Sequence record: KX534337
Origin: Escherichia phage Greed
Length of the DNA: 60,042 bases
Strand: one strand, 5' to 3'
Shown here: in pieces, positions 47,145-52,988 of the stretch
Layout: every line of letters begins with the position of its first letter
Numbering within the stretch: the stretch's first letter is position 1
Notes under the pieces: generated by a model
Told to the model about the DNA's origin: nothing
What the model saw: only the letters and a program-made list of their open reading frames with translations
Databases searched by the model: none
Program-made: the position numbers and the translations under genes

Positions 47145-47371
47145 TAGCGATCCTCGATTGCTCTAATTGTGGTTAAATCTAATTCACAGGTTGGAGGGTA
47201 TCCATAAAGTCCCATTTGTTTTCCTTGTGCATTAAACCATGTACCTGACGGATCCTGCCACTGCTTAGGTGTCTTGTGGAGAAATACTACTCTGTTTTCA
47301 CCGTAATAATTAATTCTTACGCCTGTGTGAGTATATTTACGTTTACCTTTTGGTCTTCTTAAGTTAGCCAT
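47144..47371 (-). CDS. Hypothetical protein (75 aa)
   Basis: Small basic ORF coupled between the DpdA-like and 317-aa genes. Confidence 0.4.
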   Translation of the reverse strand: MANLRRPKGKRKYTHTGVRINYYGENRVVFLHKTPKQWQDPSGTWFNAQGKQMGLYGYPPTCELDLTTIRAIEDR

Positions 47372-48291
47372 CAGAACAACTCCATTACACGATCACGGAA
47401 TGTGCCGTCATGGGTAGCGTTAATGTTTGCAGCAATTACACCATAAGCCCATAAATTGAAGGCAGCACGTGATTCATAGATTGTTGATAAACGTTCGTAA
47501 GTGAAACCGTTTTGCTCAAGGTATTTAAGGACAGCGTCTTGTTCAATTTCAGTTAATGTTGAAACATGCTTACCAAAATGATGGCGGTCCGGTGACTTAT
47601 CTGATACGCGCATTGGTCCCCACGGAGGGGTAACCACACTTCCAAACGCTGCCGCTTGAATCCAGGAGGATGAGTCACAGCTATACCACGGATAACGCTC
47701 CATAATGGTTGTTGACGTAATACCAAACGCATGAAGCTTAATCTTAGCACGTCCGCTACCATCGCAAATATATTTGTCCCACATGCGGTCAAGCCAAGTT
47801 TTAAGCGTGTCTGTGGAACGCCCTACCATGCCCCCAATGGTGATATATTCGTAGTTCTTCATGTAGTATTCAAGATAGCGGAAGTCTTCACCAAAGTGAA
47901 AGCAAGGTAACGGTTTAGCTCCGCGTGCTTCCATTTCAAGCTGGTTACGGTAGGTTTGCAACGGATCACCGATGCCATCGAGCACTGACGCCATTACTGC
48001 GCCATCTTCTACGCGAAGGATGTCTTTGTTGCGCTTAATGTATTCGCAGTATTCGACAATATCAATGTGAGCACCCAAAGAGTGCGCGGAGAATGCACCG
48101 GAGTCGAGAAACACTTTAGCCCCGTCCGCACGCATCTGATCAACATACTTTTGACGTCCAACGTAGTGGTATGATTCCAAAATATGGGGCAGATTGCGCG
48201 TGATATTTTTCTCATGCTCAGACAGCTTTTCATAACGCTGCTGGCCAGGCATATATCCGTTTGTGTAAACTGCTGCCATAAAAACGTTCAT
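47371..48291 (-). CDS. dpdA: DpdA-like DNA transglycosylase (tRNA-guanine-transglycosylase fold)
   Basis: 306 aa; VFLDSGAFSAH matches the TGT catalytic DSGGFQ region; located with folE, queD, queC and queE. Confidence 0.65.
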   Translation of the reverse strand: MNVFMAAVYTNGYMPGQQRYEKLSEHEKNITRNLPHILESYHYVGRQKYVDQMRADGAKVFLDSGAFSAHSLGAHIDIVEYCEYIKRNKDILRVEDGAVMASVLDGIGDPLQTYRNQLEMEARGAKPLPCFHFGEDFRYLEYYMKNYEYITIGGMVGRSTDTLKTWLDRMWDKYICDGSGRAKIKLHAFGITSTTIMERYPWYSCDSSSWIQAAAFGSVVTPPWGPMRVSDKSPDRHHFGKHVSTLTEIEQDAVLKYLEQNGFTYERLSTIYESRAAFNLWAYGVIAANINATHDGTFRDRVMELF

Positions 48292-48521
48292 TTTTGGAAT
48301 GGTCCTCCAAACTGATCAATTAGTTCTAAGGTGCGCCATGCATTATTAAATGCTTCGTCCGCTTGATGTTTAGCGTCAATAAGCTGCTGCTTTAAGACAT
48401 TTGTAGGCGCATCATTCTGTACTGCAGAGCAAGCATCCGCAGTACCTGCTTTAAGCTTGTAGAATGCAGCTTCTAAAATTAATTGTCTTGACATATTTCC
48501 TCCAATGACTAAAAAGCCCAT
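48288..48521 (-). CDS. Hypothetical protein (77 aa)
   Basis: Small ORF between folE and the DpdA-like gene. Confidence 0.4.
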   Translation of the reverse strand: MGFLVIGGNMSRQLILEAAFYKLKAGTADACSAVQNDAPTNVLKQQLIDAKHQADEAFNNAWRTLELIDQFGGPFQK

Positions 48522-48565
48522 ACCGGTATTATGACCGATATGGGCTTGATCTGTAAAGCTATCTA

Positions 48566-49207
48566 TTATTTACAAGCTTCGAGGAACTCCCGGCGCCATT
48601 CTTTACCAATATCGCTACCATGCTCCAGTTCTGTAGCGCCCCGGAACGCTTTGGTAATAGTAGAGCTTCCGCATACCTGCTTAACACCGCGCGACTCCAT
48701 GCACATATGCTTGGCGTCAATATAAACACATACAGCTTTCGGGTTTAAATGCTCTTGAATAGCGTCTGCAATCTGGTTAGTAAGACGTTCCTGAACTTGC
48801 AGTCGACGACTAAAAGCATCCACAACGCGAGACAGCTTACTGAGCCCAACGATCTTCCCATTTGGCACATACCCCACGACAGCATGGCCGATAATAGGAG
48901 CCATGTGATGCTCACAATGACTGTATACAGGAATATCACGGACAATGACCATTTCATTGGTGTTTTCCGCCCCATCCTCAAAGGTTTTAAACAGACCAGC
49001 AATATCTACATCGTAACCGCTAAACCATGTAGCATAAGCTTTAGCAACACGATCTGGAGTCTCTGCTAATCCTGGACGTAATTCAATGCAATCTTCAATC
49101 TGAGTTAGTAAAGTATGCACCGCGCGAGCAATACGGAATTGAGTACCTTCGTTATCAATAGTAAATTTTGGCATGGTTTGCAGTTTCCTTGTTGTTAATG
49201 TGGTCAT
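48566..49207 (-). CDS. folE: GTP cyclohydrolase I
   Basis: 213 aa; conserved CEHHM, GLSK and QVQERLT motifs of FolE. Confidence 0.85.
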   Translation of the reverse strand: MTTLTTRKLQTMPKFTIDNEGTQFRIARAVHTLLTQIEDCIELRPGLAETPDRVAKAYATWFSGYDVDIAGLFKTFEDGAENTNEMVIVRDIPVYSHCEHHMAPIIGHAVVGYVPNGKIVGLSKLSRVVDAFSRRLQVQERLTNQIADAIQEHLNPKAVCVYIDAKHMCMESRGVKQVCGSSTITKAFRGATELEHGSDIGKEWRREFLEACK

Positions 49208-49208
49208 A

Positions 49209-51633: not shown

Positions 51634-51634
51634 T

Positions 51635-51823
51635 TTAGAAACCTTTAAGGCTAATATTAAGGTTAATGACTACTTGTTCAACTACAGCTTCAGAGGTTAC
51701 CTGACGCTGGTGTATCTCAAGCTCCGTATGTATTTTCTTGGATGCAGCACGACAAATAGCGTCATTCAACTCGTCTTGTAAACGTTGAATTTTCTGCATA
51801 AGGATTACAGTTTCTTCATTCAT
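51635..51823 (-). CDS. Hypothetical protein (62 aa), tandem paralog of 51816..52028
   Basis: Shares the pattern EL-E/D...HxEL-E/D-I...VxIN...I-K/S-G with the adjacent upstream gene. Confidence 0.4.
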   Translation of the reverse strand: MNEETVILMQKIQRLQDELNDAICRAASKKIHTELEIHQRQVTSEAVVEQVVINLNISLKGF

Positions 51824-52028
51824 TTACTTCACCTTTAATATTACAAGGGTTAATTGTTACGTTAGACATTACAATTGGATGATTGCGTGCTCCAATTGTA
51901 CTAACGTGATTAATATCTAATTCTACATGCACGCCCTGCATAGTAGCGTGAGCAATTGAAGAATTAAGTTTTTCTACCAGCTCAGTGATCATTTCCTGAT
52001 GCTGTTTCGCTTCTTCCAAAGTGATCAT
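51816..52028 (-). CDS. Hypothetical protein (70 aa), tandem paralog of 51635..51823
   Basis: See 51635..51823; the two genes overlap by 8 nt. Confidence 0.4.
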   Translation of the reverse strand: MITLEEAKQHQEMITELVEKLNSSIAHATMQGVHVELDINHVSTIGARNHPIVMSNVTINPCNIKGEVNE

Positions 52029-52281
52029 TTCTTTTCACCTTCACTAATGTTTGTTTATAATCCATACCTTCAAGGTCAACTTCTGCCATTTCACAAAAGT
52101 TATCATCTTCCCAGTATGATGTCCATTTAGTTTCACTGTCCATCAACGTTGGCTCATACTCGAATCCGTAAACTGTACCGTCTTGATCCGTAGCCAGCCA
52201 CCGTACCCATTCAGGGACATCAAGCTTATTACCAAAGTATTCAACTTCTTTAGTATGCACAACCTGACTTAACACACGCAT
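51982..52281 (-). CDS. Hypothetical protein (99 aa), paralog of 13633..13935
   Basis: Shares PEW...DxDG...EVDLEGMD...TL with the plus-strand gene at 13633. Confidence 0.45.
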   Translation of the reverse strand: MRVLSQVVHTKEVEYFGNKLDVPEWVRWLATDQDGTVYGFEYEPTLMDSETKWTSYWEDDNFCEMAEVDLEGMDYKQTLVKVKRNDHFGRSETASGNDH

Positions 52282-52988
52282 TATTCCACCCCGATATATT
52301 TGTGAACCTGAAGCTGCAACGTGTAACCGTGTTTCATACAGCTTTGGACAACGGCTTGGATATTGCTGTGGTTAAGGTCTTCATCCTGCTCGTCCATTGG
52401 CTGTAAATATATCTTACCCTTGAAACCCTTCGGAGGTCTAGCGATAAATGGCGTAGCCTGATGATCTAATGCTTGAAGAGGTAAACCATCTTCCACGTTT
52501 ACACAGCACGCTTTAAGTACATATTTAAATGCATTAGCGCGGTGCAGCACAGAAGGATGAATCTTTGAGGTCTTGGGACTACATACAATTACAGGTAACT
52601 GGGAAAAGTTCTTAGGTAAAGGCATAGACCCATTAGTTTCAATTTGCACCAAATAGCCGCGCGATAACAGTTGTTCAATAAACGGGTTAATTTGCTGACG
52701 GAACGGTTCACCCCCAGTGATAACCACAAGTGAGGTGCTATTGCCTGATTCCAGCTTACGGCTTTCGATTAAACGCATAATATCGACAATATGATAAAGA
52801 CTACGACCAACAGTATAATCGGTATCACAGCCAGGGCATTGCAGATTACACCCAGCAAGACGCACAAATACAGCAGGTTGGCCGCAGAATGGACCTTCAC
52901 CCTGAATGGTAGAGAATACCGAATGCACGTCTAAATACATATCGTTTTCTTTAGAACGGGACTCGGGAGCTTGTTGATTAATATTCAT
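52281..52988 (-). CDS. queE: 7-carboxy-7-deazaguanine synthase (radical SAM)
   Basis: 235 aa; TIQGEGPFCGQPAVFVRLAGCNLQCPGCDTDY contains the radical-SAM Cx3Cx2C-type cluster and QueE-like N-terminus. Confidence 0.8.
   Translation of the reverse strand: MNINQQAPESRSKENDMYLDVHSVFSTIQGEGPFCGQPAVFVRLAGCNLQCPGCDTDYTVGRSLYHIVDIMRLIESRKLESGNSTSLVVITGGEPFRQQINPFIEQLLSRGYLVQIETNGSMPLPKNFSQLPVIVCSPKTSKIHPSVLHRANAFKYVLKACCVNVEDGLPLQALDHQATPFIARPPKGFKGKIYLQPMDEQDEDLNHSNIQAVVQSCMKHGYTLQLQVHKYIGVE

What the first reader, a model, noticed from the sequence alone, without database searches (positions are those of the whole stretch)
47371..52988. Complete preQ0-type 7-deazaguanine DNA-modification module
folE, queD, queE and queC homologs are recognisable by catalytic motifs. 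They sit with a TGT-fold protein (DSGAFS in place of the canonical DSGGFQ) and a multi-pass membrane protein. Established work on phage Dpd systems (Escherichia phages 9g and CAjan) shows this gene set replaces genomic dG with 7-deazaguanine derivatives to evade restriction. QueC here is not fused to an amidotransferase, so the base is more likely preQ0-like than archaeosine, but that is inference.
Basis: partly seen in the sequence, partly recalled or inferred. Interest (0 to 1): 0.7.

Follow-up and report, generated by a model that had tools for sequence, protein, structure and literature searches.

The report
Known phage dPreQ0 DNA-modification gene module
This is the well-studied gene set by which CAjan-like (Seuratvirus) E. 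coli phages swap about a third of their DNA guanines for the modified base preQ0 to blunt host restriction enzymes; the finding is correct but ordinary.

Summary
Window 47371-52988 (minus strand) holds intact, tightly packed genes for DpdA, FolE, QueD, a short YhhQ/VUT-like membrane protein, a stand-alone QueC and QueE, plus five small ORFs of unknown function.

The window is a complete, circularly permuted Seuratvirus genome: 92% of it aligns to phage CAjan at about 95.5% identity. Its DpdA is 306/306 amino acids identical to CAjan DpdA. QueE is 99.6% identical, QueC 97.9% and the YhhQ-like protein 98.2%.

Published work on CAjan shows dPreQ0 as the only 7-deazaguanine found, replacing about 32% of G at GA and GGC motifs. 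Deleting dpdA abolishes it, and deleting queC cuts it 12-fold.

No Gat domain was found anywhere in the window, and the window-specific ORFs I scanned matched no known modifying enzyme.

Verdict: already known, low interest. Side observations are hypervariable QueD loops, a highly conserved domain of unknown function, and YhhQ co-occurring with stand-alone QueC.

The parts
47371..48291 (-). dpdA: DNA guanine transglycosylase of the phage DpdA1 subfamily, which inserts preQ0 into DNA.
48288..48521 (-). Small ORF (77 aa, or 68 aa from the internal Met), function unknown, conserved in Seuratvirus.
   Evidence: PHROG 20065 E 1.4e-42, unknown function. 96% identical to the CAjan homologue. Overlaps the dpdA start by 4 nt.
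48566..49207 (-). folE: GTP cyclohydrolase I, the first step from GTP.
   Evidence: Pfam PF01227 E 1.4e-63. TIGR00063 194 bits, above the cut-off. Solved GTP cyclohydrolase I structures E 3e-43. CEHH motif at residue 98.
49209..49769 (-). queD: 6-carboxytetrahydropterin (CPH4) synthase, with two phage-specific hypervariable loops.
   Evidence: Pfam PTPS E 6.4e-22, above the cut-off. PHROG 2389 QueD-like E 3e-52. 71% identical to 9g QueD, which complements E. coli delta-queD (PMC6884629). Core motifs conserved.
49766..50323 (-). ORF of 185 aa, function unknown: a variable N-terminal part plus a highly conserved ~65-aa C-terminal module.
50326..50805 (-). Short (159 aa) YhhQ/VUT-family multi-pass membrane protein, a putative preQ0 transporter.
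   Evidence: Pfam Vut_1 25.4 bits, cut-off 27.2. TIGR00697 21 bits. Homologues carry PF02592 and the names 'queuosine precursor transporter' or 'YhhQ'. About 5-6 hydrophobic spans.
50926..51633 (-). queC: 7-cyano-7-deazaguanine (preQ0) synthase, not fused to an amidotransferase.
   Evidence: Pfam QueC E 7e-75. TIGR00364 243 bits, above the 150 cut-off. Solved QueC 2pg3 E 2e-56. SGGQDS motif and C-terminal cysteine cluster. 97.9% identical to CAjan QueC.
51635..51823 (-). Small ORF (62 aa), function unknown.
   Evidence: Conserved in CAjan (85%) and KurtStettler (100%). No significant family.
51816..52028 (-). Small ORF (70 aa), function unknown.
   Evidence: 94-97% identical to the homologues in CAjan and KurtStettler. 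The CAjan record calls it 'radical SAM domain-containing protein', but no family hit supports that.
51982..52281 (-). Small ORF (99 aa), an insertion absent from CAjan, function unknown.
   Evidence: 52030-52278 has no match in CAjan. PHROG 1972, unknown function, E 1e-23. Present in only some related loci.
52281..52988 (-). queE: radical-SAM 7-carboxy-7-deazaguanine (CDG) synthase.
   Evidence: PHROG 2076 E 3e-69. Five QueE NCBIfam models at E 1e-20 to 1e-28, all below their equivalog cut-offs. Solved QueE 4njg E 5e-19. CX3CX2C at residue 47. 99.6% identical to CAjan QueE.
53010..53033 (-). Terminator-like hairpin (9-bp stem, 6 G-C pairs, T-run) just upstream of queE; a possible 5' boundary of the module's transcription unit.
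   Evidence: Consensus scan. The number of such sites in the region does not exceed the shuffled controls, so this is weak evidence.

Best explanation
This is the Seuratvirus-type dPreQ0 DNA hypermodification module.

Four phage enzymes make the free base preQ0 from GTP:
- FolE converts GTP to dihydroneopterin triphosphate.
- QueD makes 6-carboxytetrahydropterin.
- The radical-SAM enzyme QueE makes 7-carboxy-7-deazaguanine.
- The ATP-dependent QueC makes 7-cyano-7-deazaguanine (preQ0).

DpdA, a TGT-like TIM-barrel transglycosylase, then exchanges guanine for preQ0 in the phage's double-stranded DNA after replication. The proposed mechanism is double displacement, with D206 as nucleophile and D63 as acid/base. 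Targets are GA and GGC contexts, about 28-32% of G. The modified DNA is partly protected from type I and type II restriction.

The short YhhQ/VUT-like membrane protein probably moves preQ0 across the membrane for salvage. That role is inferred only.

What is shown here: gene identities, motifs, the fold, and identity to CAjan proteins. What is shown in the literature for the near-identical CAjan: the chemistry, the dependence on dpdA and queC, the target motifs and the restriction protection. What is inferred: that this particular phage behaves the same way, and the transporter's role.
For: - Family and motif hits for all five enzymes.
- DpdA is 100% identical to CAjan DpdA, QueE 99.6%, QueC 97.9% and the YhhQ-like protein 98.2%.
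- 92% of the window aligns to CAjan at about 95.5% identity.
- Two bacterial-DpdA HMMs align residues 147-212 to profile positions about 199-261, the stretch that holds the nucleophile Asp.
- The residues D63, S64, F67, D105, H132, G153, G154, F189 and D206 named for CAjan DpdA in PMC7544227 are all present.
- No Gat domain anywhere in the window. The window-specific ORFs match only PHROGs of unknown function.
- Genes overlap or abut on one strand.
- G in GA or GGC contexts is 28.3% of all G, or 63 per 10^3 nt. CAjan measurements are 70.6 per 10^3 nt (PMC6884629) and 44 per 10^3 nt (PMC7544227).
- Literature: the CAjan dpdA deletion has no modification (PMC6884629). The queC deletion has 12-fold less dPreQ0, and the motifs are GA and GGC (PMC7544227). 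Seuratvirus phages are resistant to type I/II restriction-modification in vivo (PMC8594841).
Against: - No chemistry was done on this phage; everything functional is transferred from CAjan and 9g.
- DpdA has no Pfam TGT hit and scores only 15.6-16.9 bits against bacterial DpdA HMMs.
- The AF2 model is mediocre (pLDDT 64, with the C-terminal third below 50).
- QueD is only 71% identical to CAjan's because of two divergent loops, and FolE is 83% identical.
- The QueD and QueE NCBIfam scores are below the equivalog cut-offs.
- Five small ORFs in the module have no assigned role.
- The transporter's substrate and direction of transport are untested.
Confidence: 0.93

Rival explanations
1. The module makes a different DNA base (dG+/archaeosine, dADG, dPreQ1 or a further derivative), because one of the unassigned ORFs (the 185-aa ORF or the ORFs of 62, 70, 77 and 99 aa) modifies preQ0 further.
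For: Five ORFs inside the module have no known function. The 99-aa ORF and the N-terminal part of the 185-aa ORF differ from CAjan. Other phages do decorate preQ0 further (PMC10516641).
Against: - No Gat domain in any frame.
- No Pfam, NCBIfam or PADLOC enzyme hit for any of these ORFs.
- The conserved module of the 185-aa ORF occurs as a stand-alone protein in unrelated phages, and its model matches no enzyme fold.
- CAjan, which has homologues of all these ORFs except the 99-aa one, contains only dPreQ0 (PMC6884629, PMC7544227).
- The ORFs are too small for known amidotransferases or reductases.
Confidence: 0.03
2. The genes mainly boost or hijack host queuosine tRNA modification (translation tuning) rather than modifying DNA.
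For: FolE, QueD, QueE and QueC are the tRNA queuosine precursor pathway. Some phages carry these genes without DpdA and were proposed to boost production of the Q precursor (PMC6884629).
Against: - DpdA is present and identical to CAjan's, which is required for DNA dPreQ0 (PMC6884629).
- 9g DpdA does not complement E. coli delta-tgt (PMC6884629).
- No QueF, QueA, QueG or TGT was found, and there are no tRNA genes in the window.
Confidence: 0.02
3. The module is present but inactive in this phage (a decayed or non-expressed remnant).
For: QueD has divergent loops with indels. Several scores are below equivalog cut-offs.
Against: - All ORFs are intact with conserved catalytic motifs.
- Four proteins are 98-100% identical to functional CAjan proteins.
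- The QueD core is nearly invariant across 21 Queuovirinae and the variation is confined to two loops.
- The genes have RBS-like sequences and coupled starts.
Confidence: 0.02

Closest known systems
Escherichia phage CAjan (Seuratvirus cajan) dPreQ0 module: DpdA, FolE, QueD, YhhQ-like, QueC, QueE (KP064094 nt 28848-34508)
   Same: Same gene order and strand. DpdA is 100% identical, QueE 99.6%, QueC 97.9% and the YhhQ-like protein 98.2%. The genome backbone is about 95.5% identical over 92% of the window. The stand-alone QueC implies dPreQ0.
   Different: - QueD is 71% identical, with 13 extra residues in two loops.
- FolE is 83% identical.
- CAjan has an extra 324-nt ORF between queD and the homologue of the 185-aa ORF.
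- The window has an extra 99-aa ORF between queE and the 70-aa ORF.
- The N-terminal half of the 185-aa ORF differs (54% identity overall).
Enterobacteria phage 9g (Nonagvirus) dG+ (archaeosine) module
   Same: Same position next to the DNA polymerase and clamp genes. DpdA is 69% identical, FolE 82%, QueD 71% and QueE 64%. Both use DpdA1-type base exchange with preQ0.
   Different: 9g has Gat-QueC (471 aa). Only its QueC half matches the window's QueC, at 29% identity. 9g has no YhhQ-like gene in the cluster. Its product is dG+ rather than dPreQ0 (PMC6884629).
Bacterial DpdA of the Dpd restriction-modification system (Salmonella Montevideo, PDB 7UI4)
   Different: - 15% sequence identity, and HMM scores of 15.6-16.9 bits against a cut-off of 200.
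- The phage protein is about 100 residues shorter.
- The phage protein lacks the CXCX2CX22H zinc site.
- No DpdB-K partners: the helicase at 54558-56540 gives only generic helicase-domain hits.
- It serves anti-restriction in a phage, not as the modification arm of a defence system.
tRNA-guanine transglycosylases (bacterial TGT, archaeal arcTGT, eukaryotic QTRT1/2)
   Different: No Pfam TGT hit. DSGAFS replaces the canonical DSGGFQ (the canonical motif is from my own knowledge). No zinc motif. The substrate is dsDNA, not tRNA.
E. coli YhhQ (COG1738/DUF165, preQ0 importer)
   Same: Same Pfam family by near-threshold hit and by annotated homologues. Both are multi-pass membrane proteins.
   Different: The phage protein is 159 aa; from my own knowledge E. 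coli YhhQ is about 220 aa. Only its C-terminal two-thirds aligns to the profile. Transport has never been tested for the phage protein.

Membership tests
Phage DpdA1 (DNA 7-deazaguanine transglycosylase) | Close sequence relationship to an experimentally validated DpdA1 (9g or CAjan). | tested here: met
   306/306 identical to CAjan DpdA and 69% identical to 9g DpdA. PHROG 887 E 8e-96.
Phage DpdA1 (DNA 7-deazaguanine transglycosylase) | TGT-like (beta/alpha)8 barrel fold. | tested here: met
   [not shown]
Phage DpdA1 (DNA 7-deazaguanine transglycosylase) | Three active-site aspartates: general acid/base, base recognition and nucleophile. | tested here: met
   D63, D105 and D206 are present and invariant in 36 homologues. 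The positions are as assigned for CAjan DpdA in PMC7544227.
Phage DpdA1 (DNA 7-deazaguanine transglycosylase) | Inserts preQ0 into DNA. | not testable with these tools
   Shown for the identical CAjan protein by knockout plus LC-MS/MS (PMC6884629).
TGT family / bacterial DpdA (sequence-model membership) | Hit to Pfam TGT, or to the NCBIfam DpdA equivalog above its cut-off. | tested here: not met
   No Pfam hit at E<=0.01. NF041059 DpdA 16.9 bits against a cut-off of 200. PADLOC DpdA 15.6 bits. No PDB sequence hit, even with a 36-sequence profile.
TGT family / bacterial DpdA (sequence-model membership) | Structural zinc site CXCX2C...H. | tested here: not met
   Cysteines occur only at residues 82, 130, 176 and 205, and there is no CxCxxC motif. 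The feature is described as conserved in bacterial DpdA and the TGTs in PMC10164549.
preQ0 biosynthesis pathway (FolE, QueD, QueE, QueC) | FolE: GTP cyclohydrolase I family with the zinc-binding CEHH motif. | tested here: met
   PF01227 E 1.4e-63. TIGR00063 194 bits, above 181.6. PDB E 3e-43. CEHH at residue 98.
preQ0 biosynthesis pathway (FolE, QueD, QueE, QueC) | QueD: PTPS-fold CPH4 synthase with His/His-x-His zinc ligands and a catalytic Cys. | tested here: met
   PF01242 78 bits, above 22.4. H15, C24 and H28-x-H30 are invariant. However, the QueD equivalog TIGR03367 scores 64.7 bits, below 89.25, and there is no PDB sequence hit. Function rests on 71% identity to 9g QueD, which complements delta-queD (PMC6884629).
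preQ0 biosynthesis pathway (FolE, QueD, QueE, QueC) | QueE: radical-SAM enzyme with a Cys cluster, related to CDG synthases. | tested here: met
   CX3CX2C at residue 47. Solved QueE structures E 5e-19 and 4e-18. The top five NCBIfam hits are all QueE models but below their cut-offs.
preQ0 biosynthesis pathway (FolE, QueD, QueE, QueC) | QueC: PP-loop ATPase (SGGxDS) with a C-terminal zinc Cys cluster. | tested here: met
   TIGR00364 243 bits, above 150.3. 2pg3 E 2e-56. SGGQDS at residue 22 and Cys at 200, 215, 218 and 221.
Nonagvirus-type dG+ (archaeosine) pathway | Glutamine amidotransferase domain fused to QueC (Gat-QueC), or ArcS or QueF-L. | tested here: not met
   QueC is 235 aa and matches only the QueC portion of the fusion profiles. 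Residues 1-240 of 9g Gat-QueC have no tblastn hit in the window at E<=1.
YhhQ / VUT (PF02592) queuosine-precursor transporters | Pfam Vut_1 or TIGR00697 hit above the cut-off, and multi-pass membrane topology. | tested here: inconclusive
   Vut_1 25.4 bits against 27.2, and TIGR00697 21 bits against 51. The 99%-identical cluster representative and most homologues carry PF02592, and distant ones are named queuosine precursor transporter or YhhQ. About 5-6 hydrophobic spans. The substrate was not tested.
Bacterial Dpd restriction-modification system (DpdA-K) | DpdB, DpdC and the DpdD-K restriction components next to DpdA. | tested here: not met
   The seven proteins scanned against PADLOC gave only a weak DpdA hit, a QueC hit and generic helicase-domain hits for the helicase at 54558-56540.
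Genus Seuratvirus (Queuovirinae) | Genome of 56-61 kb, collinear with and highly similar to Seurat/CAjan, with a stand-alone QueC. | tested here: met
   The unique length is 59,915 bp. 92% of the window aligns to CAjan at about 95.5% identity. The best module hits are all Seuratvirus-type phages at 92-97% identity. The genus size range is from PMC8594841.

The most novel reading that the evidence does not exclude
The most novel reading left open concerns features of the module that nobody has explained. One or more of these may take part in, or protect, the modification pathway.

- Two hypervariable, indel-rich surface loops sit in an otherwise almost invariant QueD.
- The 185-aa ORF carries an ultra-conserved 65-aa C-terminal domain.
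- The short YhhQ-like protein is found with stand-alone QueC in 8 of 8 loci and with Gat-QueC in 0 of 10.

For example, the QueD loops might diversify under pressure from a host factor that senses or inhibits phage QueD. The transporter might be needed specifically when free preQ0 is the end product.
Probability: 0.08. Interest if true: 0.45.

Novelty: already known. Interest (0 to 1): 0.1.

Why it matters
It matters little as a discovery. 7-deazaguanine (dPreQ0) DNA modification is the defining, experimentally established feature of Seuratvirus phages (PMC6884629, PMC7544227, PMC8594841). The key enzyme here is identical to the one already characterised.

There are practical consequences:
- The phage's DNA should be partly refractory to restriction enzymes.
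- Nanopore base-calling should be disturbed at GA and GGC sites.
- The phage should resist many type I/II restriction-modification systems while remaining exposed to defences that target hypermodified DNA. END nucleases are one example (PMC12191111).

This is useful for annotation, cloning or sequencing strategy and phage-therapy host-range expectations.

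Tried and rejected
- **Sequence-level proof that DpdA is a TGT.** Pfam gave nothing. phmmer and a 36-sequence profile against PDB gave nothing. Bacterial-DpdA HMMs gave only 15.6-16.9 bits. I replaced this with a structure comparison.
- **Gat domain, and further modifying enzymes.** Residues 1-240 of 9g Gat-QueC have no tblastn hit in the window. PHROG scans of window-specific ORFs gave only families of unknown function.
- **preQ1 riboswitch upstream of the YhhQ-like gene.** Such riboswitches often precede bacterial yhhQ/queT genes (my own knowledge). 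There was none at Rfam gathering thresholds in the whole window. There was also none at E<=10 in 50760-50970.
- **QueD against PDB by sequence.** No hit.
- **Promoter and terminator scan of the module.** Counts were no higher than in shuffled sequence. Only the hairpin at 53010-53033 looks convincing.
- **tRNA genes.** None.

Full report
**What is in the sequence.**
All genes from about 42 kb to the end of the window lie on the minus strand. Within 47371-52988 the ORFs run as follows, 5' to 3' on the minus strand:
- queE, 52281-52988
- a 99-aa ORF, 51982-52281
- a 70-aa ORF, 51816-52028
- a 62-aa ORF, 51635-51823
- queC, 50926-51633
- a YhhQ-like gene, 50326-50805
- a 185-aa ORF, 49766-50323
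- queD, 49209-49769
- folE, 48566-49207
- a 77-aa ORF, 48288-48521
- dpdA, 47371-48291

Most neighbours overlap by 1-8 nt or are 1-2 nt apart. The only real gaps are 120 nt before the YhhQ-like gene, 44 nt before the 77-aa ORF and 69 nt before queE.

**Checking each protein.**
- FolE passes the curated thresholds: Pfam E 1.4e-63, and TIGR00063 at 194 bits against a cut-off of 181.6.
- QueC passes them too: Pfam E 7e-75, TIGR00364 at 243 bits against 150, and solved QueC 2pg3 at E 2e-56.
- QueD passes Pfam PTPS at 78 bits against 22.4. It is below the QueD equivalog cut-off and has no PDB sequence hit.
- QueE matches five QueE models, all below their cut-offs. It also matches solved QueE structures at E 5e-19.
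- The membrane protein has about 5-6 hydrophobic spans. Its Vut_1 score is just under threshold, 25.4 against 27.2 bits. Its homologues carry PF02592, and the more distant ones are named 'queuosine precursor transporter' or 'YhhQ (DUF165)'.

**DpdA.**
At sequence level that hit is indeed missing:
- Pfam gives nothing.
- PDB sequence searches give nothing, even with a 36-sequence profile.
- Two bacterial-DpdA HMMs give only 15.6-16.9 bits over residues 147-212.

Other evidence supports the assignment:
- PHROG 887 ('queuine tRNA-ribosyltransferase') matches at E 8e-96.
- An AlphaFold model was built from 36 homologues. It has pLDDT 64, with a good core over residues 50-200 and a poor C-terminal third.
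- The top 21 Foldseek hits are all TGTs, though only at E of about 1e-2.
- DSGAFS sits at residues 63-68.
- D63, D105 and D206 are invariant among homologues.

Decisively, the protein is 306/306 identical to CAjan DpdA. Kot et al. assigned exactly these residues for that protein (PMC7544227). Deleting its gene abolishes all dPreQ0 (PMC6884629).

One real difference from TGTs and bacterial DpdA is that the CXCX2C...H zinc site, described as conserved in those families (PMC10164549), is absent here.

**Context.**
The window begins and ends with the same 127 bases. It is a circular permutation of a CAjan-like genome: window position 18689 corresponds to CAjan nucleotide 1. 92% of the window aligns to CAjan at about 95.5% identity. 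The best module matches are Seuratvirus-type phages at 92-97% identity. So the window is a complete Seuratvirus genome with 59,915 unique bp.

Identities to CAjan proteins are QueE 99.6%, QueC 97.9%, YhhQ-like 98.2%, FolE 83% and QueD 71%.

**Which base.**
QueC is stand-alone. It aligns only to the QueC portion of the Gat-QueC fusion profiles. The Gat half of 9g Gat-QueC has no match in any frame of the window. The window-specific ORFs hit only PHROGs of unknown function.

The literature rule is that QueC gives dPreQ0 and Gat-QueC gives dG+ (PMC6884629, PMC8594841). CAjan DNA holds dPreQ0 only, at 70,628 per 10^6 nt or about 32% of G. The level drops 12-fold in the queC deletion mutant, and the sites are GA and GGC (PMC6884629, PMC7544227, PMC10516641). 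In this window, 28.3% of G (63 per 10^3 nt) lie in GA or GGC contexts, which is in the measured range.

**Mechanism.**
GTP is converted to preQ0 by FolE, QueD, QueE and QueC. DpdA then exchanges G for preQ0 in duplex DNA after replication. The proposed mechanism is a covalent Asp-ribosyl intermediate, with D206 as nucleophile and D63 as acid/base. This is by analogy with the TGTs and with mutagenesis of bacterial DpdA (PMC7544227, PMC10164549, PMC10516641).

The outcome is partial protection from restriction in vitro and resistance to type I/II restriction-modification systems in vivo (PMC6884629, PMC8594841). The transporter's role in preQ0 salvage is inference only.

**Rivals.**
Each of three rivals is rated at 3% or less:
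- a further-modified base made by one of the unassigned ORFs
- a role in host tRNA queuosine
- an inactive remnant

The reasons are given in the rivals section.

**Side observations.**
- QueD has a nearly invariant core across 21 Queuovirinae, even between genera whose DpdA is only 69% identical. It also has two hypervariable, indel-rich loops, at residues ~42-66 and ~98-135, and total lengths range from 164 to 190 aa.
- The 185-aa ORF ends in a ~65-aa module with 27 invariant columns across 37 diverse phage proteins. It has no Pfam family and no structural match. The same module ends 9g gp07 inside the 9g cluster. It also occurs as a stand-alone protein elsewhere.
- Among 18 Queuovirinae-like metagenomic loci, the YhhQ-like gene accompanies stand-alone QueC in 8 of 8. 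It accompanies Gat-QueC in 0 of 10. Phylogeny confounds this pattern.
- There is no preQ1 riboswitch and no other Rfam family.

**Verdict.**
The system is already known, and its key enzyme is identical to the characterised one. Interest is low.

Noticed in passing
window 1-127 and 59916-60042: The first and last 127 bases are identical. This is most likely the overlap left by assembling a circular or terminally redundant genome. The window is a complete genome of 59,915 unique bp, circularly permuted relative to CAjan, with window position 18689 equal to CAjan nucleotide 1.
   Followed up: yes
window 49209-49769 (QueD), residues ~42-66 and ~98-135: The QueD core is almost invariant across 21 Queuovirinae, including Nonagvirus. 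Two loops are hypervariable with indels, and protein lengths range from 164 to 190 aa. This could reflect relaxed constraint, recombination or diversifying selection; I did not distinguish between them.
   Followed up: partly
[not shown]
   Followed up: partly
window 50326-50805; loci L006-L023: In 18 Queuovirinae-like viral contigs, the short YhhQ/VUT-like gene is present in all 8 loci with stand-alone QueC. It is present in none of the 10 with Gat-QueC, within 4 kb either side of queD. This may simply follow phylogeny.
   Followed up: partly
window 51982-52281 (99-aa ORF; insertion 52030-52278): A small ORF of unknown function (PHROG 1972) is inserted between queE and the 70-aa ORF. It is absent from CAjan and KurtStettler and present in some other Seuratvirus contigs. 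Its 3' end overlaps the start of the 70-aa ORF by 47 nt.
   Followed up: partly
window 53809-53853, inside the ORF at 53058-53885: A perfect 15-bp tandem repeat in 3 copies encodes a run of 16 alanines. CAjan and KurtStettler have 11 alanines at this place, so the tract length varies between isolates. The protein itself (PHROG 11298) has unknown function.
   Followed up: partly
window 37858-40228, inside the 977-aa ORF at 37303-40236 (+): This is the largest stretch with no DNA similarity to CAjan. It falls in the C-terminal two-thirds of a tail-fibre-like ORF and is presumably a host-range (receptor or glycan binding) swap.
   Followed up: no
window 53010-53033 (-): A strong terminator-like hairpin (9-bp stem, 6 G-C pairs, T-run) lies between the upstream ORF and queE, directly after a promoter-like TTGTAA-18-TATAAT. 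It may mark the start of the module's transcription unit.
   Followed up: no
window 50806-50925 (-): The 120-nt gap between queC and the YhhQ-like gene contains a 7-bp hairpin (CCGCACC...GGTGCGG). It holds no preQ1 riboswitch or other Rfam match.
   Followed up: partly
locus L001 7742-7954 (CAjan AJT60529), homologue of window 51816-52028: The public CAjan record names this 70-aa protein 'radical SAM domain-containing protein'. No Pfam or other family hit supports that name for the window's 94%-identical homologue.
   Followed up: yes
window 11350-11441: An imperfect 35-bp tandem repeat (2.6 copies, 73% matches) was reported by Tandem Repeats Finder. I did not examine it.
   Followed up: no
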